A stretch of 64,000 nucleotides of DNA from a virus, in the IMG/VR virus record IMGVR_UViG_3300020599_000003, positions 113,804 through 177,803 of that record, one strand, 5' to 3'. Under the pieces are notes generated by a model. That model searched no databases. It saw only the letters and a program-made list of their open reading frames with translations, and was not told the origin of the DNA. Below, piece by piece: positions 22,086-49,161 of the stretch. Numbering within the stretch: the first letter of the stretch is position 1; every line of letters begins with the position of its first letter. The position numbers were made by a program, and so were the translations under genes.

Positions 22086-22120
22086 AAAGCCCGGTTAGCA
22101 CCATGCTGACCGGGGCTTTT
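22086..22120. terminator. Terminator hairpin
   Basis: aaagcccggttagca/tgctgaccggggctttt. Confidence 0.65.
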
Positions 22121-22855: not shown

Positions 22856-23343
22856 TCGGTGCGCTCCTTGGTGTGTGCGGTTTCGTCGATGGCGGGCACA
22901 TCGTTGTCGTATTCGTCGATCAGCAGATCGATCAGTTCGAGAGCATGCGACAGGTCTTGGGTGCCCTTCCACGTGCAGAGCAGGGTGATGACCGACTGCG
23001 CATTGGTGCAGGCCGGGGGACCGCTGAGCGTCGACAGGAAGCGAGTCAGCGAAGCATTGACGCGGATCTCATCTACGAGATGGTGACCCAGATTCGCGTT
23101 CTGCGTGCTGATGCGGCCTTCGTTGTAGACCTCGATCAACTTGACGACGTAGTGACGTGCCTTGCTGAGGTCCTTGAAGGCAGACTCACCCTCCTTGTTG
23201 CCGAAACGAGACAGATACTTGGTTGCTGCGCCCTCCAAGTGGCGAAGGTGGAGGTCAGTTGCCATGTCCCAGTGATTGTAATCACCGCCCTTATAGTGAT
23301 CACCACCAACCTGCATTTCATTTGCTTTCATGAGAGTATCCAT
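22852..23343 (-). CDS. DUF3310/SaV-like (T7 gp1.7-like nucleotide kinase) protein
   Basis: QVGGDHYK...HWD...EGAATKYLSRFGNKEG...DLSKARHY. Confidence 0.75.
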   Translation of the reverse strand: MDTLMKANEMQVGGDHYKGGDYNHWDMATDLHLRHLEGAATKYLSRFGNKEGESAFKDLSKARHYVVKLIEVYNEGRISTQNANLGHHLVDEIRVNASLTRFLSTLSGPPACTNAQSVITLLCTWKGTQDLSHALELIDLLIDEYDNDVPAIDETAHTKERTE

Positions 23344-23347
23344 CTAG

Positions 23348-24397
23348 TTAAGTGTTCTTGATGTCTTTGTTGAGGCGGCGTTCCATCCACAGGCGAGCAG
23401 CAAGCAGCCAATCATTTTCGCACTGGTAAGCAGCGTTGAACGCCACCTTGGCTTCCAGGATTCGATTGTAAGCTGCGGCACGGTCTCCGCTCTTCCAGAG
23501 CGCATACGAATGGCGCATCGGCTCCGCCACGTAGCGAAACCAGGGTACGTCATTGAAGCCAATGTGCTCACACTGATCGTAGTGGCCGACCAGAGTCTGT
23601 ACCGCTTCTTCGAAATTCGGATAGTCTGCGCCCAGCGGGTGGGAAACTACCGACGAGTGATAGATGTCTGCAGAGGCTGCGTACTCGCTGGTCAGTTGGT
23701 ATTGACCATCGCCACCTTTCTCTACGAATCGCTTAGTGATGTCAAACTCAGTGTACAGGTGCAGATTGTTTGACACCTGATAGTAGGTACCGACAGGGAA
23801 ACCCACACGGTTCGCAACGTACTCGTGCAAGAATGAGAAATGCACGACGTTCGCGCCGTAGCAGCCCCAGACGATGTCGTTACTCCGGTTATAAACCGTC
23901 ATGTTCACCCGATCACGAAGGATCTCAAACAGAGCAATAAGGTTGCACGCCTTGTCCTTCGTGCTCTTGGTAAGGTCCTCATGGTCCCAGATCTGCACAA
24001 CGGCTTGGCGTGAGTTCGGGTCCTTCTTGAGGATCTGCACAACCTCGTTCAGCTGATCGTGCCCAAAGTGCTTGCGCCACCGATATCCGTAGGCAGCATT
24101 CTGAGTCTCGCCATCATCGCTGTAGGCGAGCATCTGCTTGGCGTAGAAGCCTACAGTGGCGATGTCATTGTTGCCAGCAAGCATCCACATTGCCTCCATC
24201 AGATGGAGGAATGGATTCGCATCACGGATGGGGTTGAACGACACACGCTGGAGGGGGTTGGTCCACACCGTCGTAACGGGCGTGGGGAATCGCAGGACAG
24301 GCCCGTTGCGACTGTCCATTGGAATGCCGTGCAGCAGAACTTGCTGCAATGCCTGAGCTAGTCCCTGGTCTGGATTGCACGCTTCGAGAATGCGCAT
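23348..24397 (-). CDS. Thymidylate synthase-family dUMP hydroxymethylase (5-hmdUMP synthase)
   Basis: RBS AGGAG then ATG 24397; NPFLHLMEAMWMLAG, YSDDG, AYGYRWR, SRQAVVQIWD, DKACN, RSNDIVWGCYGANVVHFS, SNNLHLY. Confidence 0.85.
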   Translation of the reverse strand: MRILEACNPDQGLAQALQQVLLHGIPMDSRNGPVLRFPTPVTTVWTNPLQRVSFNPIRDANPFLHLMEAMWMLAGNNDIATVGFYAKQMLAYSDDGETQNAAYGYRWRKHFGHDQLNEVVQILKKDPNSRQAVVQIWDHEDLTKSTKDKACNLIALFEILRDRVNMTVYNRSNDIVWGCYGANVVHFSFLHEYVANRVGFPVGTYYQVSNNLHLYTEFDITKRFVEKGGDGQYQLTSEYAASADIYHSSVVSHPLGADYPNFEEAVQTLVGHYDQCEHIGFNDVPWFRYVAEPMRHSYALWKSGDRAAAYNRILEAKVAFNAAYQCENDWLLAARLWMERRLNKDIKNT

Positions 24398-24423
24398 AAG
24401 TACTCCTAGTTTGTATGAGGCAT

Positions 24424-25350
24424 TTACTGCATATCCCACAGGCTGAGCTGATTGGCGTCATCGCCGGAGGCTTTGTAGCGGTTCTTCGACCGCCCCCCAG
24501 CCAGCAGGCGAGCCATCTTGCTCGTCTCACACAGGCAGTTCTGCAGATCATGTGCTTCCAGCTTGCGGTCGGCGAAGATGGCCTTCAGCCGGGCGTCGTT
24601 GCGGAGAGCCGTGGTATATACGTGGAAGGCTTCCAGCCACGTAGAAGGCTTGATATCCTTCGGCCGAACGTTCAGGACGTAGGAAAGGCCGCGTGTGGAG
24701 CCCGGACCCTGCGGAGCCCACGTGTCTTTGTCGGACCAGGTGCCCTTGACGATGTGCCGCAGGTCAGCGACGACTTGGCCCGCTATGAACGAGCCGAGAC
24801 CACGATACTGCATCAGGTTGTAGTGTGTCTGCTGCATGCTCGTGGTGTCGACCTCCTCATCGGAAATCGTGTTCCACATATCACGGAGGTTGTTCAGGAC
24901 CGCTTCCCACTTCGCTACTCCACCGCCACCCCCGTTGATGATGTAGACGCCGGTGAAGATTTGTTGCTTGGCCTTCGCCATCTGCGCGAGCTTGACGTGC
25001 AGGTTCTTGTAGTGGAAGCCGTCGTAGCCCTTGGGGTACAGCAGCCCCAGCGTCTCGGGGCGATTGATGAGGCGGGCCAGCGAAGCGCCTACGGCCATCT
25101 CGGACGGGGCGAGGCGGCGATTGGTGTAGAAGTTCTCGAGCAGCCAAATGCTGACCTTGTCATCCATGCGACGGACGTTGCACCAGCGCGTGTTCGCCAT
25201 CAACTCGTTCTTGGTCCACGGGGCAGGCTTTCCCATGGCGCGGTTGCGACGAATGTTCTCGCGCTCGATGATCCACTTAACAGAGACTTCGTAGTGCGGC
25301 TTGTAGATTTGGAATTGGCTCACGTAGAGCTCCTCTGTGCGGCGCGCCAT
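24424..25350 (-). CDS. aGPT-Pplase1-family DNA base hypermodification enzyme
   Basis: ERENIRR....GKPAPWT.N.LM...RWCNVRRMDD, GLGSFIAGQVVADL, GPGSTRGL, DLQNCLCETSK. Confidence 0.85.
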   Translation of the reverse strand: MARRTEELYVSQFQIYKPHYEVSVKWIIERENIRRNRAMGKPAPWTKNELMANTRWCNVRRMDDKVSIWLLENFYTNRRLAPSEMAVGASLARLINRPETLGLLYPKGYDGFHYKNLHVKLAQMAKAKQQIFTGVYIINGGGGGVAKWEAVLNNLRDMWNTISDEEVDTTSMQQTHYNLMQYRGLGSFIAGQVVADLRHIVKGTWSDKDTWAPQGPGSTRGLSYVLNVRPKDIKPSTWLEAFHVYTTALRNDARLKAIFADRKLEAHDLQNCLCETSKMARLLAGGRSKNRYKASGDDANQLSLWDMQ

Positions 25351-26312
25351 CCATCACGGCAGGCGTCCTGGATTGTTCGATTGGGTGCCCAGCCCCACGC
25401 GGACATCGCGAACGACGCATCGGCGACGACATAAGCCGGATCGCCAGCGCGAGGGTCGGTCAGCACGCAGGGTACAGACACCTTATTTACTTCCTCGAAG
25501 GTGTCGATGAGCTCCAGCACGGAGGTGCCTTCGTTGGTGCCCACGTTGACCGCACCGTGCAGGCGCTCCTTGGAGGACACCAGATACTCCAGCGCGCATA
25601 CGTGAGCCTCGGCGACGTCCATAACGTGGATGTAGTCGCGGACGCACGTACCATCCTTCGTGGTGTAGCGGTCTCCGAACACCTTGAGCTCGGTGCCACT
25701 GATCGCAGCGTTGATGATGCGCGGGAACAGGTTGCCCGGCGCACCCAGACCCTGGTCGGTGAGTAGGCCGGATTGGTGCCCACCGATGGGATTGAAGTAG
25801 CGCAGGCTGAGGCTGTTCAGGCTGGTGCAGTCGGCGAGGAACTGCTCCACCATCAGCTTGGTGCGACCATAAGGGCTGATCGGGCCGAGCGGCGAGGATT
25901 CGCTCAGTTTGGCCTTGTATACTGGCGGCGCGTACACTGCGGCGCTGCTACTGAAGATCAGGTTCTTGATGCCGTAGCGTTCCATGGCCTCGACGAGCGC
26001 AATGGACTGGGCCACGTTGTTCTGGTAGTAGCGCACCGGCTGTTCCACCGACTCCGGCACAGACTTATATCCGGCCAGATGGATGACCGCATCGACGCCG
26101 TTCAGTGCCGGAGTATGGTAGCCACGCAACGCCCCCACAGACATCTGCAGAAAGTGTTGGGCCGACACATCCAGCTGACCCAGCGCATGTAGCGTGTTCA
26201 GGGAGCTATTCGACAAGTCGTCCATGATGACGATCTCGTGCCTGGATTCACGGAGGGCCACGCAGACATGCGAGCCTATGTAGCCCAGGCCACCAGTGAC
26301 GAGAACCTTCAT
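25320..26312 (-). CDS. galE: UDP-glucose 4-epimerase
   Basis: TGGLGYIGSH, HLAGYKSVPESV, FSSSAAVY, PYGRTK, LRYFNPIG, DGTCVRDYIHVMD. Confidence 0.95.
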   Translation of the reverse strand: MKVLVTGGLGYIGSHVCVALRESRHEIVIMDDLSNSSLNTLHALGQLDVSAQHFLQMSVGALRGYHTPALNGVDAVIHLAGYKSVPESVEQPVRYYQNNVAQSIALVEAMERYGIKNLIFSSSAAVYAPPVYKAKLSESSPLGPISPYGRTKLMVEQFLADCTSLNSLSLRYFNPIGGHQSGLLTDQGLGAPGNLFPRIINAAISGTELKVFGDRYTTKDGTCVRDYIHVMDVAEAHVCALEYLVSSKERLHGAVNVGTNEGTSVLELIDTFEEVNKVSVPCVLTDPRAGDPAYVVADASFAMSAWGWAPNRTIQDACRDGWRAAQRSST

Positions 26313-27529
26313 ACCTTTCTCCAGTTCGCCAGCACCGCACGATTGATTTCAGTTGCCAGACCCTTGGCGTGCGGCTTGGGGCGCACAGCTTTCAGCTCCA
26401 CACGCACCGCCATGCCGCTGGTTACGAGTTGCTTCACGCGGGACAGGATGGGCTTGGGTTCGCCACACATCTTCTTGCCGTCGTGGTACAGGATGATTTC
26501 CTCGTTGTAGATTTCGAGGCGCGTGACGTCCGGGTGCGCTCCAGCCATCGTCTGGAACTTGCTCATGATGGCGGTAAGGTACTTCACCGCCAAGCCAGAC
26601 GAGAACGCTTCGTTGGGCTTGCCGAGCTTGGTCAGCATGGAGCGCGCGCTGGCGTACCATTCAGCCCACTGGAATTTGCCCAGGTCCCAGGTGTTGACCG
26701 GCTTCCAGGCGTGGCGGTTGATTCGACCGAGCTCGAAGCGTTTGTCCTGGTCCTTGCCCTTGGAGGTTGCGCCAGGGAACAACGTGACCAGCAGGGCGAT
26801 GGCTCGATTGTTCGTGAACTCGTTGCGGTACACGTTCATGCCGCCGCTCGACTTCTTCATGTCGAACTCGGCACTGAACGCCACGTCGTAAATGCGCACG
26901 AAGTTGGCTTCTTGCAGCGTCGTAAGGTTCGACATGAGGTCGATATACGCCACGTCTTGCAGCAGGCCGTGCCGTTCCATGAACGCGAAGTGGCGCACGA
27001 ACATGTCCGTCTTGTACCCGAAGATGCAGGCGTTCTTCGTGTTCTCGTGGACGTACAGACCCGTAGCGTGCTTACGCTCGGGCGTCATCAGGTCGTAGTT
27101 GTTGCGGCTGGCACCGGCAAAGCCAATGCCCGCGTAGTCCTTCCAGAGGGCCGGGAGCTTCTTCCAGACGGCGTTGAGTGCGGCTTGCCCAGCTTCAGTG
27201 CGCGTCGTCTTGTACTTGCCGTCGATCAATACCTGCAATGTGAGATCGTCATCGGCGAACAGGAATTGTTTGCAGCCGTTTTCCTGGAGCCACTTCGCCA
27301 TCAGGTAGCGCTTCGTGATCAGCTTGAGGTCGTCGTTGAAGCTCTTGATCAGGAGCGGCTTGATGCCGTCTTCCTTGAGACGGTCCTGGAGCGCAAGGCG
27401 TTCACTGGCGCAGGTGACCACGATGGTGTTGGAGATGATCTCCGGCGTGAGGTAACGCAGCGTCTTCTGGCGGTCGATGCGCCCACGCGTGAACAGGACG
27501 ACGTAGGTTTCTTTCGGGTTCAGCCGCAT
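26309..27529 (-). CDS. GT-A glycosyltransferase, TET-associated (TAGT/GREB1-like) type
   Basis: Start MRLNPK at 27529; FTRGRIDRQKTL, FLFADDDL, YIDL..NL, GGMN.YR. Confidence 0.7.
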   Translation of the reverse strand: MRLNPKETYVVLFTRGRIDRQKTLRYLTPEIISNTIVVTCASERLALQDRLKEDGIKPLLIKSFNDDLKLITKRYLMAKWLQENGCKQFLFADDDLTLQVLIDGKYKTTRTEAGQAALNAVWKKLPALWKDYAGIGFAGASRNNYDLMTPERKHATGLYVHENTKNACIFGYKTDMFVRHFAFMERHGLLQDVAYIDLMSNLTTLQEANFVRIYDVAFSAEFDMKKSSGGMNVYRNEFTNNRAIALLVTLFPGATSKGKDQDKRFELGRINRHAWKPVNTWDLGKFQWAEWYASARSMLTKLGKPNEAFSSGLAVKYLTAIMSKFQTMAGAHPDVTRLEIYNEEIILYHDGKKMCGEPKPILSRVKQLVTSGMAVRVELKAVRPKPHAKGLATEINRAVLANWRKV

Positions 27530-28335
27530 TTCGGAGGCTCCGTGGTCAGGATTTCCTCGTACAGCGTGCTGTCGTCGTGCGGCGGCTGCTGGAGGATAGG
27601 GTTGATCTTGGGGGTCTGGATTGCGCGCACTTTCCACAGGTACGAAGCGTGGTTCAGCGGCTGCGGCTGGCGGCGCGGATACAGGTAGCCTAGGTGCGCA
27701 CAGAAGTCGTAGTCGTAGGAATACAGATACTCGCACATGGTGAGGATCTTGTGCTTGTCCTCCTCGGGCAGAGCATCGTACCACGCCCGGCTGCTCTTGG
27801 AGTTGAGGTGCTTGAGCTCGAACTGGCCGTCAGCACCGAATAGAAACCGGCTGATCTTCGACTCCAGGTTCGGGTCTTCCAGCGAGTAATGGGCGTACTC
27901 GATGGCGTATGCCTTGGAGGGGAAGAACGCAGCCTGAGGCCGGAACCACGGGAACTCCGGGAGCCACACACTCTCCGGTGTCAACATCTCCCACAGGAAG
28001 TCCACCAGCGGCAGGTTGAATCGTGTGTACCAGTCGTGCCGCTTGACCTCGAACTCGCGAATGGCGGAGAGGAAGCGGTCGAGCGGATCACGCACGATTC
28101 CGAAGAAGCGATACTTCGACAGGCGGTGTGGGCTGAGAATGCGCGCCACCGACTGGAAGTCCAGGTGGGACATATTCTCCATGTGGTATGCACCGTCGCG
28201 GGGGTCGCGGAAGAACCCCTGGTAGCGGTAGGTGTCAGGTACACCCAGGCGCTTGAGGAGTTCGGTGCGGATGCTGGTGCCGCCCGCCTTGGGGTTGTGC
28301 AAGAAGACGATCTTGCGACCTTCATCAACGATCAT
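27520..28335 (-). CDS. Sulfotransferase (Sulfotransfer_2 family)
   Basis: 5'-PSB loop FLHNPKAGGTSIR; 3'-PB motif FGIVRDPLDRFLSA; FRPQ. Confidence 0.88.
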   Translation of the reverse strand: MIVDEGRKIVFLHNPKAGGTSIRTELLKRLGVPDTYRYQGFFRDPRDGAYHMENMSHLDFQSVARILSPHRLSKYRFFGIVRDPLDRFLSAIREFEVKRHDWYTRFNLPLVDFLWEMLTPESVWLPEFPWFRPQAAFFPSKAYAIEYAHYSLEDPNLESKISRFLFGADGQFELKHLNSKSSRAWYDALPEEDKHKILTMCEYLYSYDYDFCAHLGYLYPRRQPQPLNHASYLWKVRAIQTPKINPILQQPPHDDSTLYEEILTTEPPKCG

Positions 28336-29120
28336 TGTCGCTCCAGAGCTTCGGCGCGCTTGCGCCAGTACATACACTGCTCGCCCAGGCTGAGATTGCG
28401 GGGGTCCTGTTCATGGTGGTATCCGGCAAGCGGGATCGCCATACCATCGACGATGTCCGCATGCGTGGTGGGCGGGGCCACGCTGCCGACCATCTCGTAG
28501 CCGAACAGCAGGAAGTCCCGGGCATACAGCCTATTTACCAGACCCAGCACATCCTCGTCCAACTGGTCGACAGTCAGGCGCGCGCCAACATCGTACTTGC
28601 GCTGATCCTTGGCGTGATCGAGTTCGGTACGCTGGATGCCCAGGTGCATGGTCAGCTGGGACCAATGCAGGTCCAGCTCTTCGAAGCGCCCGATGAAGTC
28701 CGCGAACTTCGTGTTATTCCAGTAGAAGAAGTAGTGCTGCGGGCAGAAGTGGGTGTACCGCCAGTCGAATCGGAGGTTGCTCACGGTCATGTGGCGGCGC
28801 GCCCATTCGTTGAAGTCGGTGTCCGGGGCCAGCTTGTGCTGGTACTTGTGTTCCGCCCACGAGCTGAACAGGCGGTCGTAGGGGTTGCGCACGAAACCGA
28901 ACTTCGTGTAACTGGCGAAGTCGCGGTCCGGCCACACGTGGGGTACGTCGCCAGCACACACATGGAACAGCTCCACCACGCGCTCCAGGGACGGGATGTA
29001 TTCCTGGTACGCCAGCCGATGCGGGTTGCTGTCGTACTGGAAGAGCTGGCGGCGGATGCTGGTGCCCGCAGCCTTGGGGTTGTGGATGAAGAGGAACTTG
29101 TTAGTATCGGAGATGATCAC
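28332..29120 (-). CDS. Sulfotransferase (Sulfotransfer_2 family)
   Basis: FIHNPKAAGTSIR, FGFVRNPYDRLFSSW, HFCPQ, DFIGRFEEL, LYARDFLLFGY. Confidence 0.92.
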   Translation of the reverse strand: MIISDTNKFLFIHNPKAAGTSIRRQLFQYDSNPHRLAYQEYIPSLERVVELFHVCAGDVPHVWPDRDFASYTKFGFVRNPYDRLFSSWAEHKYQHKLAPDTDFNEWARRHMTVSNLRFDWRYTHFCPQHYFFYWNNTKFADFIGRFEELDLHWSQLTMHLGIQRTELDHAKDQRKYDVGARLTVDQLDEDVLGLVNRLYARDFLLFGYEMVGSVAPPTTHADIVDGMAIPLAGYHHEQDPRNLSLGEQCMYWRKRAEALERQ

Positions 29121-29128
29121 GATGTGCC

Positions 29129-30127: not shown

Positions 30128-30894
30128 CAGATGAGACCTCCAATCTTCGCAGCGCTACGCCACGAGATACGAGTGTTGGAATCAGGGTGCTGAGCCGACG
30201 GCGGTTTTTCCTTGACCACGTCGGGGTGCAGCTGGATGAGTTGCTTCAGGCAGCGTGCCGCTTCCTCGCGGGTGCGCTCGCCGGACAGGCCACCGTCGCC
30301 TTCAGCGCCGCGCTGTGCCACTACCATATCATATGTCAGAGCAATGCGCCATCCACCCTTGAGCCATTGCAGCGTGTAGTCAATGTCTTCGTAGAAGTGG
30401 ATGCGCCCCCACTCGATAGCTTTGATGGCGGCACGAGAAGCGCCGAATGCAAAACCGAGATGGAAGTTTTCTTTGATCCCACCCTTCTGGGCGAATGCCT
30501 TGGTGCCGAGTCCGATTACAGGATAGTCGCGCACGAGCTTCGGCATCGTCTTCGTCCAGAACTTGCGCGTGGCCGCCGCGTTGGTGGAGGCCACGACGTG
30601 CTTATCCTGCTTGGTGTCGAAGACGTACAGGTAGAGGTCGTCGTCGAACATGAAGCTGAACGGGTATTTGCTCTGCTTCATGATCCACTCGCGCTTCTTG
30701 TGGAGGGTCTTGATGTTGTCCGGCTGCGCCAGCACGTTGACGCCAGGGTAGTTGCTGCGCAGCGCGTCAACCTCGTCACGCGGACACACCAGGGTCACCA
30801 GCGACCGCAGCGGGAGCGGCATACGCTCGACAGTGAGTTGCTTCGTGGTGCGGCCACGGGTTGGGATGAAGATGTGGTAGTTAGGCTTCGACAT
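30127..30894 (-). CDS. GT-A glycosyltransferase, TAGT-like
   Basis: Start MSKPNY at 30894; IFIPTRGR, KREWI, FMFDDDL, YEDIDYTLQ.L..GW, GGLS.ERT. Confidence 0.8.
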   Translation of the reverse strand: MSKPNYHIFIPTRGRTTKQLTVERMPLPLRSLVTLVCPRDEVDALRSNYPGVNVLAQPDNIKTLHKKREWIMKQSKYPFSFMFDDDLYLYVFDTKQDKHVVASTNAAATRKFWTKTMPKLVRDYPVIGLGTKAFAQKGGIKENFHLGFAFGASRAAIKAIEWGRIHFYEDIDYTLQWLKGGWRIALTYDMVVAQRGAEGDGGLSGERTREEAARCLKQLIQLHPDVVKEKPPSAQHPDSNTRISWRSAAKIGGLI

Positions 30895-31642
30895 CGGGGA
30901 GAAGTCCTTGGTACGATCTGAGTTCCCCGGGCGTGCCGAGGCAGTGGAAAGAGGTGCGAGGCACCGACAGAACAGCAACCTCCTGCGCAGCCGTCTTGGA
31001 GAACATGTCCACGAACGTGGCTTCCCGCCCTTCTGGCAGCTTCTCCAGGTACTGCGCAGCGAGAGTCTCGAACTCGGACAACGAGCGGAACCAGTAGATG
31101 CCGCACGCGCCGAGTACATCACCACCAATGGGCAGGTCCGGCTGGCGCTCCCAGGCACGTAGGAGGCGCGTGCGGTCGGCGGACGTGAACAGCTTGGCCT
31201 TGTTGGTGTCGTCCGGGCTGGACTCGCCATAAAAGCCCACGAGGCCACACGTCGTATTGTGACGCTCGAAATACGCTGCGGTCTCGTTCATGGGTTGACG
31301 GATGTACGAGTCGCAATCGTAGAACAGTACCGGGCGCAGTGGATTGATCTCGGGCCATAGGTTAACTGCGTTCAGCGCAGATTCGACGGGGCCGCGTGTG
31401 ATGGCTTCCAGCGCGACGAAGTTCTTGAACGCGCCCGAGCCGAACAGGGTCTTCCCGGATGCCCACGGAGGCAGCGCCCCGTACAGATCAGTGGCTCCAG
31501 GGGAAATGTGCATCATGCTGGAGACGAACATCCACATGGGAAGCTTGCCGTCCACGAGGATGAACGGCTTCGGCACTTCGTATCCAGCGTCGGCAAAGCG
31601 TTGGCCTGCGCCAGCAGCGAGCAGGCAGAGTTGGGTTTTCAT
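30881..31642 (-). CDS. Sugar-phosphate nucleotidyltransferase (capsule-locus BcbG/EcbG-like)
   Basis: LAAGAGQRFADAGYEVPKPFI, TRGPVESAL, YDCDS, CGIYWF, LGTPGEL. Confidence 0.75.
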   Translation of the reverse strand: MKTQLCLLAAGAGQRFADAGYEVPKPFILVDGKLPMWMFVSSMMHISPGATDLYGALPPWASGKTLFGSGAFKNFVALEAITRGPVESALNAVNLWPEINPLRPVLFYDCDSYIRQPMNETAAYFERHNTTCGLVGFYGESSPDDTNKAKLFTSADRTRLLRAWERQPDLPIGGDVLGACGIYWFRSLSEFETLAAQYLEKLPEGREATFVDMFSKTAAQEVAVLSVPRTSFHCLGTPGELRSYQGLLPDVEA

Positions 31643-33084
31643 CAGATTTCCCCGACCAGCTCGTTGGCGAGCCGGATGAATTGGTGTTGGTGGTCGGGCC
31701 GGTCGCTGTGCAGAGGCACCATCGAGTAGAACAGCAGCGCGGTCTGTGCCAGCAGCCATTCGCGGCACACATCGAAGCGCAACCGGATCGACCGCAGGAA
31801 GAAATCGACCAACGTCTGGTTGCGCTCGAACGGCCTATCGGCCATGATATGGTCGTAGCCCACCAACGAGTGGAACAGCTTCGCTAGATCGTAGCGGATG
31901 TCCCCGAACAGCGTCGGCGTGTTGTCGTTGTCAACGCCACGCGGATCGATCAGCACGATGTCGCGCAGGCGATGGTCGTATAGGATATTGCTGAAGCACA
32001 AGTCGCCATGCACCAGATACGAATACCTCCGTGTAGCGTTGCCGACGATCTCACGGCAGTGGTCGATGTTCTGCTGGATCCGCGTGGTCGCCATCCCGTC
32101 GGGGTATTCAGCGAAGCGTGCAAGGGGCTTGTCCTGGAACAGGGCAGTGGACTGCTCGATGGCGGATAGTGGCGCAGGGCCAACGTCCATGGATGCGTCG
32201 AGCCATTTGAAGCAGCGCTCCAGGATGCATTCCCACTCCTGGTCGCGCAGCTTGCCGTGGACGTACATCTCGGATAGCGTAGGCAGTGGGCTGTACTCCA
32301 GCGAGTATTCGCCGTCGAAGCGGCCGGGATTGGTCAGCAGCTTCGGGGCGTAGATTTGCAGAGCGGGCGGCAGGTTAGCGAACCAGTTCAGCTCGCCGAA
32401 GATCTTGTGCTTGGGGCCACGTTTGGTGACTGTCCGATGGTCCACCGATTCCAATGCATTGAAGTTGCGCGTGGTGTGCTTGAGGTAGGCGTGCTTGGAC
32501 GTGAAGTACGTGCTGAGGTGACCGAAGTCCTTCCACGAGTCTGGGGCCACGCGCTCGACATGCAGCGCCCCGAGGAACTTGATGAACTCGGCGCGATCCT
32601 TGAGCGGGCTGTCGTGCAGCTTCTTGACGGTGCTACGGCACGCCGTGAAGTGACCCACGAAAGCGCGCTCGGTGCCAGGCAGGAAATCCCAATGGCGCGT
32701 CGACCCGACGTAGTCGTTCGTGGTGTACACGATGGGGAGTTCACGGCGCAGGAAGCTAGTACGAAGCGTGTCTCCCCAAAGGAAGTGGACGCACGTACTG
32801 TCGTCAATGCGGCAGACCAGTTGACGTATGAGGAAGTTCAGAACCTCATGCAATTCCAGGTCCCGCAGATTGGCGATGAAAGTCACACCCTCAATCTGAG
32901 GCGTGGCAGTGTCGGGCCAAGTCACGATGATCTCGTCCACTTGGTCCCGAGCGGCCTCGATTTGAAGCTGCAAAAGGGTCTTGCCGCCAACAGGTACAGC
33001 GGCGGCAGGAATGGGTCCGAAGAGGAACTGCAACTCCGCATCACACAATGCGGAGCTCAGGATAACGAGGATCTGTTTCTTCAT
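31642..33084 (-). CDS. Nucleotidyltransferase-like/APH-type kinase fusion (capsule-locus BcbE/EcbE-like)
   Basis: N-terminal ELQFLFGPIP...PVGGKTL; DFGHLSTYF...TRNFN.L; HGDLCFSNILYD, IDPRG, GDIRYDLAKL.HS. Confidence 0.75.
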   Translation of the reverse strand: MKKQILVILSSALCDAELQFLFGPIPAAAVPVGGKTLLQLQIEAARDQVDEIIVTWPDTATPQIEGVTFIANLRDLELHEVLNFLIRQLVCRIDDSTCVHFLWGDTLRTSFLRRELPIVYTTNDYVGSTRHWDFLPGTERAFVGHFTACRSTVKKLHDSPLKDRAEFIKFLGALHVERVAPDSWKDFGHLSTYFTSKHAYLKHTTRNFNALESVDHRTVTKRGPKHKIFGELNWFANLPPALQIYAPKLLTNPGRFDGEYSLEYSPLPTLSEMYVHGKLRDQEWECILERCFKWLDASMDVGPAPLSAIEQSTALFQDKPLARFAEYPDGMATTRIQQNIDHCREIVGNATRRYSYLVHGDLCFSNILYDHRLRDIVLIDPRGVDNDNTPTLFGDIRYDLAKLFHSLVGYDHIMADRPFERNQTLVDFFLRSIRLRFDVCREWLLAQTALLFYSMVPLHSDRPDHQHQFIRLANELVGEI

Positions 33085-34166
33085 TGGTTCGTCCGGTAAT
33101 CATCACCAGTATACGCTTTGGTCCAGGAGACCACCACTTCTTGACGCACTTCTGACGTACTGTATTTACGGTCTTGGACCCTGACTAGACCGGGATGTAT
33201 CTTGGCGAGTCTGAACGCCTCCGCGTTCGAGGCCTCCATTGTTCGTTCGGTACTGACTCCCCCTTCTGCACCAAAATCCAGCGGGTTGATGACGAGGTTT
33301 TGCATGATCGCATTGGGGTAGCCCAGCTTCAGCAGATGCAGCGTGACGTTGAAGTCCTCGCGGAAGCGCACTTCGTCGAAGCGGATGCCGTTGTCCAGCA
33401 GCGTGCGCCGGTGATGACCGATGGCGTGCATGGCGCGGCCCACGATCTTAAGCTCCTTGCGCACCGCGTTGTTCATCATGCGACTGGAGATGCAGGTATG
33501 GGCGTACCCATCCTCCACCATGAGCTTTCGTAGAGCTTTCCAGGCTGCGGTACGCTGCTTATCGTCAAATCCATCTTTGAATAGGAATGTGACGCCCTTC
33601 TCCATCGCTTCATCAGTAACACGCCATTGGCCCGACTTCTCCGTACCGTGCCATTCGCGCATACTCATCGGACACCGCCGGAAGAAGTACATGTCGTCGT
33701 CCATCTGGAAGATGTTCTCGCTGCGCACGTTCTCTATAATCCATTGGCGTTTTTTGGCTATTCCATCTACAGAGGGGTCATCAACAGCCCATACCAAGTC
33801 GTGCTTGTAATAGCGACGGATTTCCTTAGCCTCATCCCAATCGCTGGTCAGCACGAGGGTGTTGGCGCGGATTTCGGGCGGCAGCTCCAGCAGAGTGATC
33901 TGGCGGTGCGGACGCCGGTACGTCGGGATGACTATCTGGAAGTCCTTATCAGCCACGGGTGGGCGCTTGCCAGCGGGCTTGAGAACAATGCGTGGCTTCA
34001 CATCAATGAACTGCGCACGGTTCGAGTTGACTCGCGATTCCTTCGGCTCTTTGGCTTTCGCTGCCTTGGGTTTCGCGGTGGACTTGGCACCCTTCTTGGT
34101 CGGTGCCTTGGGAGGAGCTTCGGCTGGCTGGGGCCGATTGGCGAGGATCCGAGAAAGTATGCCCAT
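33081..34166 (-). CDS. GT-A glycosyltransferase, TAGT-like, with a basic N-terminal extension
   Basis: IVIPTYRRPHRQIT, KRQWI, FQMDDDM, REDFNVTLHLLKLGYPN, GAEGGVSTERT. Confidence 0.82.
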   Translation of the reverse strand: MGILSRILANRPQPAEAPPKAPTKKGAKSTAKPKAAKAKEPKESRVNSNRAQFIDVKPRIVLKPAGKRPPVADKDFQIVIPTYRRPHRQITLLELPPEIRANTLVLTSDWDEAKEIRRYYKHDLVWAVDDPSVDGIAKKRQWIIENVRSENIFQMDDDMYFFRRCPMSMREWHGTEKSGQWRVTDEAMEKGVTFLFKDGFDDKQRTAAWKALRKLMVEDGYAHTCISSRMMNNAVRKELKIVGRAMHAIGHHRRTLLDNGIRFDEVRFREDFNVTLHLLKLGYPNAIMQNLVINPLDFGAEGGVSTERTMEASNAEAFRLAKIHPGLVRVQDRKYSTSEVRQEVVVSWTKAYTGDDYRTNQ

Positions 34167-34172
34167 GAGATA

Positions 34173-34682
34173 TCACCCGTATTGGAGAGCGCAGACGCCT
34201 AAGCGCCGGTACATTTCGATCTGGTGGTCGGAGTCGTCCACCGCGAAGAGGATGTCTAGATTGTTGGCCCGCAGCATTTCCACGAATTCCTGCTTGAACT
34301 TGGTGGAGGCTGAGGCCCCGTGCCCGTAAATGCTCACATCCTTGAAGTGCGTTGCCATGCGGCCGGACTGTAGAGCCTCATCGGCCAGACTACTGCTCAG
34401 GCACGACTGGAAGATGCGGCGCTGGTCTGGAGTGTTGGGGCGGGCTGACAAGAACACGATCTGCACTGGCGAGTACCAGAGCATATCGACAACTCGCAGG
34501 AACGGCAGCGGAGTGTCCAGGGCTGCGAGATTGTTGTACTCACGGCGGTCTTCAGGTGTGGAGTTGGGCTTGGTAATCAGGTGGAGGCGGTGGCGGTGAT
34601 CGAACAGAACACCGTCCACGTCCACAAGCACGATGGGCAGCCGGTTGCCACGCGCCCAGTCCAGTGAGAATTCGCCGATCAT
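34173..34682 (-). CDS. HAD phosphatase (PNKP/PseT C-terminal-like)
   Basis: VLVDVDGVL, FLSARP, FK, AVDDS..I.MY..LGV. Confidence 0.8.
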   Translation of the reverse strand: MIGEFSLDWARGNRLPIVLVDVDGVLFDHRHRLHLITKPNSTPEDRREYNNLAALDTPLPFLRVVDMLWYSPVQIVFLSARPNTPDQRRIFQSCLSSSLADEALQSGRMATHFKDVSIYGHGASASTKFKQEFVEMLRANNLDILFAVDDSDHQIEMYRRLGVCALQYG

Positions 34683-35446
34683 GACAGCGAGAAGATGACG
34701 GTGCCATCTTCGTTGGTCGTGAACTGTGGGAATCCTTCGACGCCGACGTTCCACTTCTTGACGTTGTGCTCAATGGTGCTGGCCGGGTACATGTCCCCGT
34801 TCAGGTGGAAGCCATCGACCAATGTTTCAGCCATGTTGTCGGCCTGGATGATGCGCCAGTGCTTCGTGTTGCCGTCACTGAGTGTGTTGTAGCGGATGTA
34901 GAATCGCTTGTAACCAGCACGGCTGCGGAGGAGCTTGTCGCAGACGGTGGCCCAATCGTCAAGTTGCTCGGCACTCTGCCAACCCTGGATGACGAGGTCG
35001 GCGACGCCAGGACCCGCCAGGGTATTGGAGGTGAGGGGCTTCTCGAACAACATATTGGTGTCTGCGAAGCGACCCTCATCGATGGTGTCCATCCAGATTT
35101 TATGGATGACCAGATTGGAGTTCTCGGTGTTGGCGGCAGCATGGAACGTGCGGCGAGTTTCCAGCGTAGGGTTCACGAAGTCCACGACCACGAACGGCGC
35201 GGTCAGCGACGTGTAGCCAGCGAGGCTGCCCAGGATACGTGCTTGCTCCAGGCGATCCTCAGGCGTGAAGCCCAGGTGTTTGGTAATCGTGCTACGTGCC
35301 CAGTCCGCGTTGATGTGGACCGCACCCAAGAGTTTGCTGAGCTTCTTGGCGAGCGTGGTTTTGCCGGAGCCGGGCAAGCCCATGATGTTGATGATGCGGT
35401 GGGTGCGCGGCGATGACGTTGTTTCGATCTTGGCTTGCTGGGTCAT
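34679..35446 (-). CDS. cysC: Adenylyl-sulfate (APS) kinase-like P-loop kinase with a C-terminal extension
   Basis: IMGLPGSGKTTLA, INADWAR, GFTPEDRLEQAR, VVVDFVNPT..TR, GRFADTN..FEKP. Confidence 0.75.
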   Translation of the reverse strand: MTQQAKIETTSSPRTHRIINIMGLPGSGKTTLAKKLSKLLGAVHINADWARSTITKHLGFTPEDRLEQARILGSLAGYTSLTAPFVVVDFVNPTLETRRTFHAAANTENSNLVIHKIWMDTIDEGRFADTNMLFEKPLTSNTLAGPGVADLVIQGWQSAEQLDDWATVCDKLLRSRAGYKRFYIRYNTLSDGNTKHWRIIQADNMAETLVDGFHLNGDMYPASTIEHNVKKWNVGVEGFPQFTTNEDGTVIFSLS

Positions 35447-35447
35447 A

Positions 35448-35999
35448 TCAGTACTCCATGGAATGTTCACTGATGGTGTCGTGGCATCGCAGAACGCAGA
35501 TGCCTTCTTCCTTGAACATGTTGATGTTCTTGATGCTGTCGTCGATGGCTGCGACAATGTCCAGACCGGCAGCCTGGATTTTCTTCACGATGCGACGTTT
35601 GTAGTCCACCGAGTTTTCTTCGTGGGGTGCGGTGTCCTTGAATTGGTAGTACCAATCTTCGTAGCCGGGGATGAACGGCTTAATCGCGTTCTCGAACGTG
35701 CTGATTTGGAACTGGTCCTCCGGGCGAGCCGTCAGGAAGATGAGCGTGTACACCACGGACAGACGGCGCAACATCCTGCACAGCGGGAGAGGCTCGTCCT
35801 CCGGGGCCTCCCGCTCGTAAGCTTCCCAGTCCGCACCCGTGGTCTTGTACTCGATGCGACCGTCGCGGATTTCGCAGATGTGATGCAGGCGCGGCAGGTT
35901 GTTCAGGAGAACACCGTCCACGTCAACGATGAGGACCTGCGAATCTTTCCGCAGGTTGCGGAGGCCAGCAGCCAGACTGTGATCGAAATCTGCCATCAA
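35448..35999 (-). CDS. HAD phosphatase (PNKP/PseT C-terminal-like)
   Basis: LIVDVDGVL, FLTARPE, YK, AIDDS..NI.MF. Confidence 0.8.
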   Translation of the reverse strand: MMADFDHSLAAGLRNLRKDSQVLIVDVDGVLLNNLPRLHHICEIRDGRIEYKTTGADWEAYEREAPEDEPLPLCRMLRRLSVVYTLIFLTARPEDQFQISTFENAIKPFIPGYEDWYYQFKDTAPHEENSVDYKRRIVKKIQAAGLDIVAAIDDSIKNINMFKEEGICVLRCHDTISEHSMEY

Positions 36000-48210: not shown

Positions 48211-48241
48211 CAGACGTCCTTGTAGATGACGCAGGCTTGCA

Positions 48242-49159: not shown

Positions 49160-49161
49160 GG

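What the first reader, a model, noticed from the sequence alone, without database searches (positions are those of the whole stretch)
23348..35999. Candidate new phage DNA hypermodification system: sulfated/glycosylated thymidine
Seen in sequence: a translationally coupled run (mostly ATGA/TGATG overlaps) of HAD, APS kinase, HAD, GT, kinase-fusion, nucleotidyltransferase, GT, GT, sulfotransferase, sulfotransferase, GT, GalE, aGPT-Pplase1 and dUMP hydroxymethylase, followed by DUF3310. Established: a dUMP hydroxymethylase with aGPT-Pplase enzymes marks thymidine-hypermodifying phages (phiW-14, ViI, M6), and TAGT-type GT-A enzymes glycosylate hydroxymethylated bases. Inference: adding PAPS-dependent sulfotransferases and sugar-activation genes predicts a 5-hmdU-derived base carrying a sulfated sugar or a sulfate ester. 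I do not know of such a DNA base being described. It would plausibly shield DNA from restriction and Cas nucleases.
Basis: partly seen in the sequence, partly recalled or inferred. Interest (0 to 1): 0.95.

Follow-up and report, generated by a model that had tools for sequence, protein, structure and literature searches.

The report
Phage genes for sulfated sugar-DNA
An uncultured large phage related to Ralstonia phage phiRSL1 carries a 15-gene operon, plus its own sulfate-activation enzymes, that most likely replaces thymine with hydroxymethyluracil, hangs sugars on it and sulfates them, a DNA chemistry I found described nowhere and one that can be tested directly in phiRSL1.

Summary

- The phage also encodes ATP sulfurylase (CysD and a CysN-like GTPase, window 46915-49327). 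With the APS-kinase-like gene, it has a complete route to the sulfate donor PAPS.
- The core set is a TS-like dUMP hydroxymethylase, aGPT-Pplase1 (PF18723), at least one TAGT glycosyltransferase, a Sulfotransfer_2 enzyme and an APS-kinase-like kinase. It recurs in 12 distinct loci, including cultured phiRSL1, in shuffled gene order. No locus has the sulfotransferase without a glycosyltransferase.
- The nearest bacterial relatives of the sulfotransferases lie in O-antigen or capsule loci, which points to a sugar as the acceptor.
- There is no 5-HMUDK kinase and no aGPT-Pplase2 transferase, so this is not the M6/ViI-type pathway.

Best reading (about 0.6): pre-replicative 5-hmdU, then glycosylation on DNA and O-sulfation of the sugar. 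No chemistry has been shown. Ten literature searches found no report of a sulfated DNA base. The 2013 paper that defined these families (Iyer et al.) could not be read.

The scan has found the same gene kit before in other phiRSL1-like genomes. I rate it a new variant of a known kind, with high interest.

The parts
35448..35996 (-). g01, HAD-superfamily phosphatase (subfamily IIIB / PNKP-phosphatase-like), 182 aa. First gene of the run.
   Evidence: Pfam Acid_phosphat_B 9e-7. phrog_415 2e-20. 30% identical to g03. Weak homolog of phiRSL1 ORF228.
34679..35446 (-). g02, APS-kinase-like P-loop kinase with a conserved C-terminal extension of about 110 aa, 255 aa. Proposed PAPS-forming kinase.
   Evidence: Pfam APS_kinase 6.7e-10, above its gathering score. 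TIGR00455 37.6 bits, below its cut-off. Best PDB match is APS kinase 2yvu at 4e-11, with the APS-binding motif aligned. Similarity to PaMx11 gp49, a 5-HMUDK, is limited to the P-loop. 48% identical to phiRSL1 ORF238.
34173..34682 (-). g03, HAD phosphatase of the polynucleotide-kinase-phosphatase type, 169 aa. ATGA overlap with g02.
   Evidence: Pfam HAD_PNKP 8.7e-8. phrog_415 6.8e-19. Overlap seen. HAD_PNKP genes recur beside the module in L005, L011, L015, L019 and L040.
33081..34166 (-). g04, TAGT-type GT-A glycosyltransferase, 361 aa, with a Lys/Ala/Pro-rich basic N-terminal tail of 72 residues.
   Evidence: Pfam TAGT 8.7e-11. phrog_842 8e-52. DDD motif at 156-158; tail pI 11.5 with 18 K+R. 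63% identical to phiRSL1 ORF237.
31642..33084 (-). g05, bifunctional nucleotidyltransferase (N-terminal) and APH/choline-ethanolamine-type kinase (C-terminal), 480 aa. Proposed to activate a sugar or alcohol through X-1-P to NDP-X.
   Evidence: AF2 model pLDDT 95.3. Foldseek matches the N-terminal domain to PntC, RmlA, LicC, HddC and GDP-Man pyrophosphorylase, and the C-terminal domain to APH and ethanolamine kinases. phrog_24015 5e-86. The Atlas places it with 'WeoK / capsular biosynthesis' NTP_transferase+APH clusters. 2903 representatives at E<=1e-3.
30881..31642 (-). g06, stand-alone nucleotidyltransferase-like protein, 253 aa.
   Evidence: No Pfam hit. phrog_3980 5.6e-14. The Atlas places it with NTP_transferase clusters at 0.97-0.98. 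32% identical to phiRSL1 ORF235, annotated 'nucleotidyl transferase'.
30127..30894 (-). g07, TAGT GT-A glycosyltransferase, 255 aa. The best-conserved glycosyltransferase of the module.
   Evidence: Pfam TAGT 4.2e-36, covering the full model. 71% identical to phiRSL1 ORF234. DDD at 84-86. All four IMG/VR loci that hold a relative also hold the sulfotransferase.
29129..30127 (-). g08, divergent GT-A glycosyltransferase, 332 aa. No counterpart in the phiRSL1 cluster.
   Evidence: phrog_842 3.5e-12. 20% identical to g07 over 220 residues. DDD at 81-83, pI 9.6.
28332..29120 (-). g09, PAPS-type sulfotransferase (Sulfotransfer_2), 262 aa.
   Evidence: Pfam 3.6e-19, 70 bits against a cut-off of 22. 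5'-PSB motif HNPKAAGTS and 3'-PB motif RNPYDRLFS, invariant across 25 homologs. 66% identical to phiRSL1 ORF232. 314 relatives found.
27520..28335 (-). g10, second, divergent Sulfotransfer_2 enzyme, 271 aa. Absent from phiRSL1.
   Evidence: Pfam 9e-9, 36 bits against 22. Motifs HNPKAGGTS and RDPLDRFLS present. Groups at 98/94 support with the only sulfotransferases of the TS-linked modules L024 and L026.
26309..27529 (-). g11, GT-A (weak TAGT) glycosyltransferase with a C-terminal extension of about 150 aa, 406 aa.
   Evidence: Pfam TAGT 1.6e-5, 25.4 bits, just under the gathering score; 27.6 bits in the genome scan. 27% identical to phiRSL1 ORF233. DDD at 93-95.
25320..26312 (-). g12, UDP-glucose 4-epimerase GalE, 330 aa. 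Absent from the phiRSL1 cluster.
   Evidence: TIGR01179 338.7 bits against a cut-off of 262.3. Pfam Epimerase 1.7e-47.
24424..25350 (-). g13, aGPT-Pplase clade 1 (PF18723, HMUDK_hel), 308 aa. All-helical, DNA-glycosylase-like, with an invariant Cys274-Glu275 pair.
   Evidence: Pfam 4.3e-41. hhalign 99.9% to PaMx11 gp50 and no match to the clade-2 transferase gp46. Invariant C-E in 11 module homologs. AF2 pLDDT 70, with the top weak Foldseek hits all HhH DNA glycosylases bound to DNA.
23348..24397 (-). g14, thymidylate-synthase-family enzyme, 349 aa. Predicted dUMP hydroxymethylase and the only TS-family gene in the genome.
   Evidence: Pfam 5e-22, but far below the ThyA equivalog cut-offs. 44% identical to PaMx11 gp51 and 50% to phiRSL1 ORF230. 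Catalytic Cys and the uracil-specifying Asn are conserved in all 13 module homologs. No ThyX.
22852..23343 (-). g15, DUF3310 protein, 163 aa, directly after the hydroxymethylase.
   Evidence: Pfam DUF3310 1.3e-4, 22.3 bits, just under the gathering score. A DUF3310 homolog also follows the TS gene in L040 and occurs in the PaMx11 locus.
48242..49327 (-). CysD, sulfate adenylyltransferase small subunit, 13 kb from the cluster on the same strand.
   Evidence: NF003587 353 bits against a cut-off of 195; Pfam PAPS_reduct 6.8e-34.
46915..48450 (-). CysN-like GTPase, the large subunit of ATP sulfurylase, adjacent to CysD.
   Evidence: TIGR02034 CysN 256 bits and NF004035 285 bits over the full length; both are below the equivalog cut-offs but are by far the best matches. 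GTP_EFTU 6e-36.

Best explanation
This is a thymidine hypermodification operon. It most likely makes virion DNA in which thymine is replaced, wholly or partly, by 5-hydroxymethyluracil carrying a sulfated mono- or oligosaccharide.

Proposed steps:
1. g14 converts dUMP to 5-hm-dUMP. A dCMP deaminase and a dUTPase_2-family enzyme elsewhere in the genome feed dUMP. The base is then incorporated during replication.
2. g05, g06 and GalE (g12) supply NDP-sugars.
3. The basic TAGT-type GT-A enzymes (g07, g04, g08, g11) glycosylate the 5-hydroxymethyl group on DNA and extend the glycan. The glycosylase-like g13 probably engages or flips the base.
4. CysD, CysN and the APS-kinase-like g02 make PAPS.
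5. The two sulfotransferases (g09, g10) O-sulfate the sugar(s).
6. The PNKP-type HAD phosphatases may remove the by-product PAP or dephosphorylate a sugar phosphate.

Shown here: the gene families, the intact motifs, the operon structure and the conserved co-occurrence. Inferred: every chemical step, DNA as the acceptor, the position of the sulfate and the order of steps. Sulfation could happen on the NDP-sugar before transfer.
For: - Families and motifs.
- g14 has the catalytic Cys and the uracil-specific Asn. It is 44% identical to the TS-family gene (gp51) of PaMx11, a phage whose DNA carries a 5-hmdU-derived base (PMC8989533). An independent phylogeny groups the phiRSL1 homolog with dUMP hydroxymethyltransferases (PMC11946847). 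It is the only TS gene in the genome and there is no ThyX.
- The core set (TS, Pplase1, at least one TAGT, sulfotransferase, APS-kinase-like) occurs in 12 distinct loci in shuffled order. Flanking genes are only 30-41% identical to the own genome's. The minimal modules L019, L021 and L040 keep exactly these five functions.
- In L005 and L011, CysD and a short CysN sit inside the module between the APS kinase and Pplase1. The window's phage carries CysD and CysN 13 kb away. So the kinase serves sulfate activation.
- No module has a sulfotransferase without a TAGT. All three bacterial relatives of the sulfotransferase that I examined lie in O-antigen or capsule loci.
- The four glycosyltransferases and g13 have pI 9.6-9.7. 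g04 has a tail of pI 11.5. No protein has a membrane segment.
- The g13 model resembles DNA-bound HhH glycosylases.
- TAGT scores above its cut-off in none of the 14 control bacterial genomes.
- Phages with aGPT-Pplase1 but no detectable 5-HMUDK include RP13, whose DNA is highly modified; YerA41, from the same phage group, carries glycosylated thymidine (PMC13697223).
Against: - No chemical or expression data exist for this phage or, as far as I could find, for phiRSL1.
- The APS-kinase-like protein scores far below the CysC equivalog cut-off and its lid motif is not recognisable.
- The sulfotransferases have neutral pI, unlike the DNA-facing enzymes. They may therefore not act on DNA directly.
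- Their bacterial relatives modify surface polysaccharides. That is equally compatible with a non-DNA glycan target.
- The module-bearing phages share distant backbone genes, so the 12 loci are not fully independent.
- No dNMP or thymidylate kinase for hm-dUMP was found.
- The function of clade-1 aGPT-Pplase is unknown even in M6 and PaMx11, where it is dispensable in vitro (PMC8989533).
Confidence: 0.6

Rival explanations
1. Sulfate acts as a leaving group. A sulfotransferase takes the place of the missing 5-HMUDK and esterifies the 5-hydroxymethyl group of hmdU in DNA. g13 then uses its Cys-Glu pair, as the clade-2 amino-acid:DNA transferases do on 5-phosphomethyl-dU, to displace sulfate with a nucleophile. 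The final base would carry no sulfate.
For: - No 5-HMUDK and no clade-2 transferase in the genome, while g13 is always present and keeps an invariant Cys-Glu.
- In phiRSL1, L007 and L011 the sulfotransferase lies directly upstream of Pplase1. That is the position 5-HMUDK holds in PaMx11, where the order is kinase, Pplase1, TS.
- The clade-2 mechanism, with Cys attack at C6 and loss of phosphate, is established (PMC8989533).
Against: - Sulfotransfer_2 relatives sit in polysaccharide loci.
- The sulfotransferase never occurs without a TAGT glycosyltransferase.
- In the window two genes separate the sulfotransferases from g13.
- Clade 1 has no demonstrated transferase activity, and hhalign found no alignment to clade 2. 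The Cys-Glu equivalence is therefore untested.
- Two different sulfotransferases are hard to explain by a single activation step.
Confidence: 0.1
2. The sugar and sulfate genes do not act on DNA. They build or alter a sulfated glycan on another target, such as a virion protein, the host envelope or LPS, or a small molecule. In this reading they only share an early or middle operon with the hydroxymethylase and Pplase1.
For: - Closest cellular relatives of the sulfotransferase and of the g05 fusion (the Atlas clusters are labelled 'capsular biosynthesis') work on surface polysaccharides.
- Other viral contigs carry a sulfotransferase, an APS kinase, GalE and a nucleotidyltransferase without any TS or Pplase1 within 10 kb (L033-L037, L012).
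- The sulfotransferases have neutral pI.
Against: - There is no transmembrane segment, signal peptide, flippase, polymerase or lipid-carrier transferase.
- The glycosyltransferases belong to the TAGT family and are basic.
- Linkage to TS and Pplase1 survives repeated rearrangement across 12 loci, and the minimal modules contain nothing else.
- The operon lies among replication genes (SSB and RecA in phiRSL1; helicases and PolA in the window).
Confidence: 0.17
3. The APS-kinase-like enzyme and the 'sulfotransferases' handle a non-sulfate group. The model is Campylobacter Cj1415, an APS-kinase homolog that 3'-phosphorylates CDP-phosphoramidate. The decoration would then be something other than sulfate.
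For: g02 is well below the CysC equivalog cut-off. From my own knowledge, APS-kinase homologs with other substrates exist (the Cj1415 MeOPN pathway).
Against: - CysD scores above its NCBIfam cut-off and a CysN-like GTPase lies next to it. Both are in this genome and inside the module in L005 and L011.
- Both sulfotransferases keep the PAPS 5'- and 3'-phosphate-binding motifs.
Confidence: 0.05

Closest known systems
Ralstonia phage phiRSL1 (Mieseafarmvirus) ORF228-238 cluster, NC_010811
   Same: The order is the same: APS-kinase-like (ORF238, 48% identity), TAGT (ORF237, 63%), NT-kinase fusion (ORF236, 38%), NT (ORF235, 32%), TAGT (ORF234, 71%), GT (ORF233), sulfotransferase (ORF232, 66%), Pplase1 (ORF231, 27%), TS-like (ORF230, 50%), with a HAD (ORF228) nearby.
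   Different: The window's version is larger. It adds a second sulfotransferase of another clade (g10), a fourth glycosyltransferase (g08), GalE, a second HAD and, elsewhere in the genome, CysD and CysN. phiRSL1 has no CysD. No DNA-level similarity was found. I found no report on phiRSL1 DNA composition.
5-hmdU-derived thymidine hypermodification of M6, ViI, PaMx11, phiW-14 and SP10 (Lee et al. 2018, PMC5889632; 2021, PMC8989533)
   Same: A dUMP hydroxymethylase of the same TS subfamily and a clade-1 aGPT-Pplase sit directly upstream of it. The logic of post-replicative decoration of 5-hmdU in DNA is shared.
   Different: There is no 5-HMUDK, no clade-2 amino-acid:DNA transferase, and no PLP, radical-SAM or FAD tailoring enzymes. 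In their place are glycosyltransferases, NDP-sugar enzymes, sulfotransferases and PAPS synthesis.
Phage DNA glycosylation with TAGT-type and other glycosyltransferases (T-even glucosyl-hmC; 5mYOX/TET- or ThyS-linked GT-A pathways, bioRxiv 10.1101/2023.12.21.572611)
   Same: GT-A/TAGT enzymes sit next to a thymidylate-synthase homolog, with secondary glycosyltransferases, an epimerase and an APH-type phosphotransferase as neighbours. That preprint lists exactly these neighbour classes.
   Different: That work does not mention sulfotransferases, APS kinase or CysDN. The base here is predicted to be a uracil derivative, not cytosine.
Heavily sugar-modified thymidine of SP-15, YerA41 and Ralstonia phage RP13 (PMC13697223; PMC7354516)
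   Same: These are T-modified genomes with glycans. RP13, EP_H11 and EcoM_IME92 have aGPT-Pplase1 without a detectable 5-HMUDK. SP-15 carries an anionic sugar derivative (phosphoglucuronolactone).
   Different: SP-15, the one member with a defined linker, joins the sugars to uracil through a dihydroxypentyl chain. No sulfate or sulfation genes are reported there.
Bacterial O-antigen and capsule sulfation loci (Pantoea ananatis, Vibrio algivorus, a gammaproteobacterial MAG)
   Same: Sulfotransfer_2 enzymes 34-40% identical to g09 sit beside glycosyltransferases, an NTP-transferase, epimerases and, in Vibrio, a CysN-like gene.
   Different: Those loci also have ABC transporters, Bac_transf initiating transferases and flippases, which export a glycan. 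The phage module has none of these and has DNA-base enzymes instead.

Membership tests
5-HMUDK / aGPT-Pplase2 thymidine hypermodification pathway (M6, ViI, PaMx11 type) | dUMP hydroxymethylase of the thymidylate-synthase family | tested here: met
   g14 matches PF00303 at 5e-22, has the catalytic Cys and the uracil-type Asn, and is 44% identical to PaMx11 gp51. Hydroxymethylase as opposed to methylase activity is inferred from homology only.
5-HMUDK / aGPT-Pplase2 thymidine hypermodification pathway (M6, ViI, PaMx11 type) | 5-hmdU DNA kinase (P-loop 5-HMUDK) | tested here: not met
   tblastn of PaMx11 gp49 against the whole 178-kb record finds only a 24-residue P-loop match in g02. Beyond the P-loop, g02 aligns with APS kinases.
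5-HMUDK / aGPT-Pplase2 thymidine hypermodification pathway (M6, ViI, PaMx11 type) | Clade-2 aGPT-Pplase (amino-acid:DNA transferase) | tested here: not met
   tblastn of PaMx11 gp46 finds no significant match (best E 0.25). hhalign of the g13 family against gp46 gives 0.1% probability.
5-HMUDK / aGPT-Pplase2 thymidine hypermodification pathway (M6, ViI, PaMx11 type) | Clade-1 aGPT-Pplase (PF18723) next to the hydroxymethylase | tested here: met
   g13 scores 141.6 bits against a cut-off of 25 and 99.9% by hhalign to PaMx11 gp50. It lies directly upstream of g14.
TAGT-type phage DNA glycosylation | GT-A glycosyltransferase matching PF20691 with a DxD motif | tested here: met
   g07 125 bits and g04 42.6 bits are above the 27.5 cut-off. 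g11 is borderline at 25.4-27.6 bits. g08 matches only through phrog_842. All four have DDD.
TAGT-type phage DNA glycosylation | A linked source of a hydroxymethyl-pyrimidine (5mYOX/TET or thymidylate-synthase homolog) | tested here: met
   The TS homolog g14 is in the same operon. The same linkage is seen in 12 loci.
TAGT-type phage DNA glycosylation | Glycosyl transfer to a base in DNA | not testable with these tools
   Needs an enzyme assay on 5-hmdU DNA. Only indirect support is available: basic pI, a K/A/P-rich tail and no membrane segments.
PAPS synthesis (CysD, CysN, CysC) | ATP sulfurylase small subunit CysD | tested here: met
   NF003587 353 bits against a cut-off of 195.
PAPS synthesis (CysD, CysN, CysC) | ATP sulfurylase GTPase subunit CysN | tested here: inconclusive
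   Full-length best matches are to the CysN models (256-285 bits) but fall below their cut-offs of 336-715. The gene is adjacent to CysD.
PAPS synthesis (CysD, CysN, CysC) | APS kinase CysC | tested here: inconclusive
   The Pfam domain is above its gathering score (39.6 against 21.1), but TIGR00455 scores 37.6 against 138.7. The P-loop and the 'D-W-A-R...LGF-x-x-E-D-R' APS-site motif align to 2yvu. Context with CysD and CysN in L005 and L011 supports the role.
PAPS-dependent sulfotransferase, Sulfotransfer_2 (PF03567) | Family HMM above its cut-off plus the 5'-PSB and 3'-PB PAPS-binding motifs | tested here: met
   g09 scores 70.3 bits and g10 36.3 bits against a cut-off of 22. The HNPKxxGTS and R(N/D)PxxRxxS motifs are present, and their core residues are invariant or nearly so across 25 homologs. 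Motif assignment rests on general knowledge of sulfotransferases; no solved homolog was found by sequence.
phiRSL1-type module (ORF230-238) | Orthologs of the nine ORFs in the same order | tested here: met
   Eight clear counterparts at 27-71% identity plus a weak ORF233 counterpart (g11), collinear.

The most novel reading that the evidence does not exclude
Virion DNA of this phage, of phiRSL1 and of about ten uncultured relatives carries O-sulfated glycosyl-5-hydroxymethyluracil. This would be the first sulfate-bearing nucleobase in any DNA. The sulfate donor would be made by the phage itself: an APS kinase in every module, plus ATP sulfurylase here. The window's version, with four glycosyltransferases and two sulfotransferases, would make a multiply sulfated oligosaccharide. 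That would add negative charge to DNA rather than neutralising it, unlike the known amine modifications.
Probability: 0.5. Interest if true: 0.9.

Novelty: new variant of a known kind. Interest (0 to 1): 0.8.

Why it matters
Known phage thymidine and cytosine hypermodifications add sugars, amino acids or polyamines. I found no report of a sulfate ester on DNA.

- **Physical properties.** A sulfated glycan in the major groove would be bulky and anionic. It should block restriction enzymes, Cas nucleases and DNA glycosylase-type defences. It should also change DNA charge density, packaging and sequencing behaviour, including nanopore and PCR failures.
- **New enzymes.** It would add DNA-glycan sulfotransferases and a phage-borne PAPS pathway to the DNA-modification toolbox.
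- **Why every module has its own APS kinase.** From my own knowledge (Bick et al. 2000), several proteobacteria, including Pseudomonas aeruginosa and Burkholderia cepacia, assimilate sulfate by reducing APS directly, so if the hosts of these phages do the same they may make little or no PAPS.
- **Testability.** phiRSL1 is cultured, so the prediction can be tested at once.

Tried and rejected
**Searches that found nothing**
- megablast of the cluster against 50,697 phage records gave no hit.
- phmmer of g05, g06, g07 and of the sulfotransferase profile against the PDB found nothing useful.
- hhalign of the g13 family against the clade-2 transferase gp46 gave no alignment, so the Cys-Glu equivalence is unproven.
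- The sigma-70 promoter and terminator scan gave no more sites than shuffled sequence.

**Searches that did not extend the sample**
- The search for related loci with the single g09 sequence found only two distant loci. The alignment-based search worked.
- The 22-sequence TAGT alignment was too divergent to search with. A closer set returned only contigs already in hand. I therefore could not measure how many glycosyl-hmdU modules lack a sulfotransferase.

**Literature**
- Ten searches found no paper linking sulfotransferases to phage DNA modification.
- Iyer et al. 2013 (NAR 41:7635) and Weigele & Raleigh 2016 are not held.
- The Burkholderia phage Matilda preprint reports no modified base by HPLC. 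This does not bear on the finding. Its published relatives BcepSaruman and BcepSauron gave no tblastn match to the g09 sulfotransferase in the phage collection, where only phiRSL1 matched. Matilda's own record was not checked.

**Ideas rejected**
- g02 as a 5-HMUDK: similarity is limited to the P-loop.
- g14 as a dCMP or CMP hydroxymethylase: it has Asn, not Asp, at the specificity position.

Full report
**1. Source and observation**

The window is the last 64 kb of a single 177,803-bp IMG/VR virus record. The record has direct terminal repeats and CheckV estimates it at 75% complete.

They are HAD, APS-kinase-like, HAD, GT, nucleotidyltransferase-kinase fusion, nucleotidyltransferase, GT, GT, sulfotransferase, sulfotransferase, GT, GalE, aGPT-Pplase1, thymidylate-synthase homolog and DUF3310.

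I chose start codons by ribosome-binding sites and by neighbours. This gives ATGA overlaps at five junctions and one-base TGATG overlaps at two. The rest are short overlaps or gaps of at most 26 nt. A 122-nt gap precedes the first gene. An 11-bp GC-rich hairpin follows the gene after DUF3310.

**2. The individual genes**

*g14, the TS homolog.* It is a divergent member of the family, with 71 bits against ThyA equivalog cut-offs of 108 bits or more.
- It has the catalytic Cys.
- At the position that is Asn177 in E. coli ThyA and Asp in the CMP hydroxymethylase MilA, it has Asn. Its substrate is therefore a uracil nucleotide. Both residues are conserved in all 13 homologs from related modules.
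- It is 44% identical to PaMx11 gp51 and 50% to phiRSL1 ORF230. PaMx11 DNA carries a 5-hmdU-derived base (PMC8989533). A published tree groups the phiRSL1 protein with dUMP hydroxymethyltransferases (PMC11946847).
- The genome has no other TS, no ThyX and no thymidylate kinase. It does have a dCMP deaminase and a dUTPase_2 enzyme outside the window.

*g13, the Pplase1.* It matches PF18723 at 141.6 bits.
- Its family aligns at 99.9% probability with PaMx11 gp50 (clade 1) and not with the clade-2 transferase gp46.
- Eleven module homologs share an invariant Cys-Glu pair.
- The AF2 model (pLDDT 70) is all-helical. Its best, weak, Foldseek matches are all helix-hairpin-helix DNA glycosylases bound to DNA.

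*The glycosyltransferases.* g07, g04 and g11 hit the TAGT model and g08 hits phrog_842. All four have a DDD motif and pI 9.6-9.7. g04 carries a 72-residue Lys/Ala/Pro-rich tail of pI 11.5.

*Sugar activation.* g05 folds with pLDDT 95 into an N-terminal nucleotidyltransferase domain (PntC, RmlA, LicC, HddC-like) and a C-terminal APH/ethanolamine-kinase domain. This fusion is also common in bacterial capsule loci. g06 is a second nucleotidyltransferase-like protein. g12 is a bona fide GalE.

*The sulfotransferases.* g09 and g10 are Sulfotransfer_2 enzymes with intact 5'- and 3'-phosphate-binding motifs for PAPS.

*g02, the kinase.* Beyond the P-loop it aligns with APS kinases, including the APS-site motif. 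With a true 5-HMUDK it aligns only at the P-loop. It is below the CysC equivalog cut-off.

**3. A complete sulfate-activation pathway**

This is new here. Thirteen kb away on the same strand lie CysD (353 bits against a cut-off of 195) and a full-length CysN-like GTPase. With g02, the phage can go from sulfate to PAPS on its own.

phiRSL1 and four other module-bearing viral records, three of them rated complete, lack CysD. Every module nevertheless has the APS-kinase-like gene. Supplying PAPS therefore appears to be the indispensable step.

**4. Comparative evidence**

*phiRSL1.* It has the same cluster in the same order, ORF238 to ORF230, with a HAD nearby. It lacks g03, g08, g10 and g12.

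*Other loci.* Relatives of the sulfotransferase led to metagenomic and IMG/VR loci. I scored every locus with profiles built from the window's proteins.
- Twelve distinct loci carry the sulfotransferase, the APS-kinase-like gene, at least one TAGT, Pplase1 and the TS gene within 10 kb. They are the window, phiRSL1, L015, L016, L019, L021, L024, L026, L040, L005/6, L007 and L011.
- Gene order differs from locus to locus. In L005 and L011, CysD and a short CysN lie inside the module.
- The smallest versions (L019, L021, L040) keep exactly one TAGT, one sulfotransferase, the kinase, Pplase1 and TS.
- No locus has the sulfotransferase with TS but without a TAGT.

*Independence.* Flanking genes of these loci match the own genome at only 30-41% identity. 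The phages are thus distant relatives, not independent lineages. The set has nonetheless been kept together through deep divergence and rearrangement.

*Sulfotransferase tree.* g09 groups with phiRSL1 and L015. g10 groups, with 98/94 support, with the only sulfotransferases of modules L024 and L026. The window therefore combines two sulfotransferase types that each work alone elsewhere.

*Bacterial relatives.* The relatives in Pantoea, Vibrio and a gammaproteobacterial MAG all sit in O-antigen or capsule loci with glycosyltransferases, Glf, ABC transporters or initiating transferases.

**5. Mechanism**

The best-supported reading is as follows.
1. 5-hm-dUMP is made before replication.
2. TAGT-type enzymes glycosylate 5-hmdU in DNA after replication, using phage-activated and epimerised NDP-sugars.
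3. The sugars are O-sulfated with phage-made PAPS.

Support for a sugar as the acceptor comes from the polysaccharide context of the sulfotransferase relatives and from the rule that a sulfotransferase never occurs without a glycosyltransferase.

Support for DNA as the substrate of the glycosyltransferases comes from five points:
- the TAGT family assignment;
- their basic charge;
- the lack of any export or membrane component;
- the linkage to a DNA-glycosylase-like protein and to the base-making enzyme;
- the position of the operon among replication genes.

What remains open:
- the role of g13; clade 1 is dispensable in vitro in M6 (PMC8989533);
- whether sulfation occurs on DNA or on the nucleotide sugar; the sulfotransferases have neutral pI;
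- the identity of the sugars;
- the role of the two PNKP-type HAD phosphatases; I suggest removal of the inhibitory by-product PAP, but this is a guess.

I put the whole chain at about 0.6.

**6. Rivals**

(a) *Sulfate as a leaving group that replaces the phosphate of 5-PmdU.* In this reading g13 acts as the transferase. It is attractive because the kinase and the clade-2 transferase are missing, and because the sulfotransferase sits where 5-HMUDK sits in PaMx11. Against it are the sulfotransferase-glycosyltransferase rule and the sugar-type relatives. About 0.1.

(b) *A non-DNA glycan target.* About 0.17.

(c) *A non-sulfate group.* About 0.05, and made unlikely by CysD and CysN.

**7. Comparison with what is known**

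The module shares the hydroxymethylase and the clade-1 Pplase with the M6, ViI and PaMx11 systems. It fails two defining features of that pathway, 5-HMUDK and aGPT-Pplase2, so it should not be filed there.

It fits the broader class of glycosyltransferase-based DNA hypermodification next to a thymidylate-synthase homolog. The neighbour classes listed for that class are epimerase, secondary glycosyltransferases and APH phosphotransferase (bioRxiv 10.1101/2023.12.21.572611), and all are present here.

Among phages with aGPT-Pplase1 but no detectable 5-HMUDK, RP13 has highly modified DNA of undefined chemistry. YerA41 and SP-15, members of the same phage group, carry glycan-bearing thymidine (PMC13697223).

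Sulfation is the new element. None of the papers I could search or read mentions a sulfotransferase in a DNA-modification pathway or a sulfated DNA base.

**8. Earlier findings of this scan**

The scan has reported the same gene kit in other phiRSL1-like genomes (e1-5322003, e1-5409260, e1-5409261, e1-5596775) and this same stretch from another window (e1-5813479). They reach the same reading.

One of them says the chemistry was predicted in 2013. I could not verify this, because Iyer et al. 2013 is not held. If the claim is true, the novelty lies in the unshown chemistry and not in the idea.

**9. Verdict**

Relative to the literature I could reach, it is a new variant of a known kind of system. 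Interest is high because it is chemically unprecedented and can be tested at once in a cultured phage.

Noticed in passing
window 46915-49327 (minus strand): Phage-encoded ATP sulfurylase: CysD (above the NCBIfam cut-off) and a full-length CysN-like GTPase, lying between helicase genes. This is rare in cultured phages. Only four phage-collection records matched CysD at E<=1e-20, one of which is a Salmonella enterica genome contig, and phiRSL1 was not among them.
   Followed up: yes
L021:14792-16852 (IMGVR_UViG_3300047552_000234): The thymidylate-synthase homolog of this related module is interrupted by an insertion of about 330 residues immediately before the catalytic Cys. The insertion starts with Cys and ends His-Asn followed by Cys. 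This is the pattern of an intein sitting in the active site.
   Followed up: partly
window 33951-34166 (N-terminus of g04): A 72-residue Lys/Ala/Pro-rich tail (18 K+R, pI 11.5) is fused to a TAGT glycosyltransferase. It resembles histone-H1-like DNA-binding tails. phiRSL1 ORF237 lacks it.
   Followed up: partly
L033-L037 and L012: Other viral contigs carry a sulfotransferase, an APS kinase and either GalE (L033-L037, most also with a nucleotidyltransferase) or a GT4 glycosyltransferase (L012), with no TS, Pplase1 or TAGT within 10 kb. L012 sits between topoisomerase and 5'-3' exonuclease genes. These may be separate phage sulfation systems with an unknown target.
   Followed up: no
window 22852-23343; L040:17497-17997; L002: A DUF3310 gene follows or lies near the dUMP-hydroxymethylase gene in this phage and in L040, and one occurs in the PaMx11 locus. 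It is a recurrent neighbour of unknown function.
   Followed up: no
window 22090-22114: An 11-bp GC-rich inverted repeat with a 3-nt loop lies just after the stop of the gene downstream of DUF3310. The T-run is better on the plus strand. It may be a bidirectional terminator that marks the 3' end of the operon.
   Followed up: partly
window 41955-42977 (G000:C1:155758-156780, minus strand): A family-A DNA polymerase domain lies within a 1075-aa open frame. I did not check whether it belongs to the UDG-fused polymerases recently described for T-modified phages (PMC13697223).
   Followed up: no
window 36118-37110 (minus strand): A 330-aa gene just upstream of the operon is 35% identical to phiRSL1 ORF248, annotated 'peptidase'. 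It contains an HExxH-like 'HELGHH' motif. In phiRSL1 nine small ORFs separate it from the module; here they are absent.
   Followed up: no
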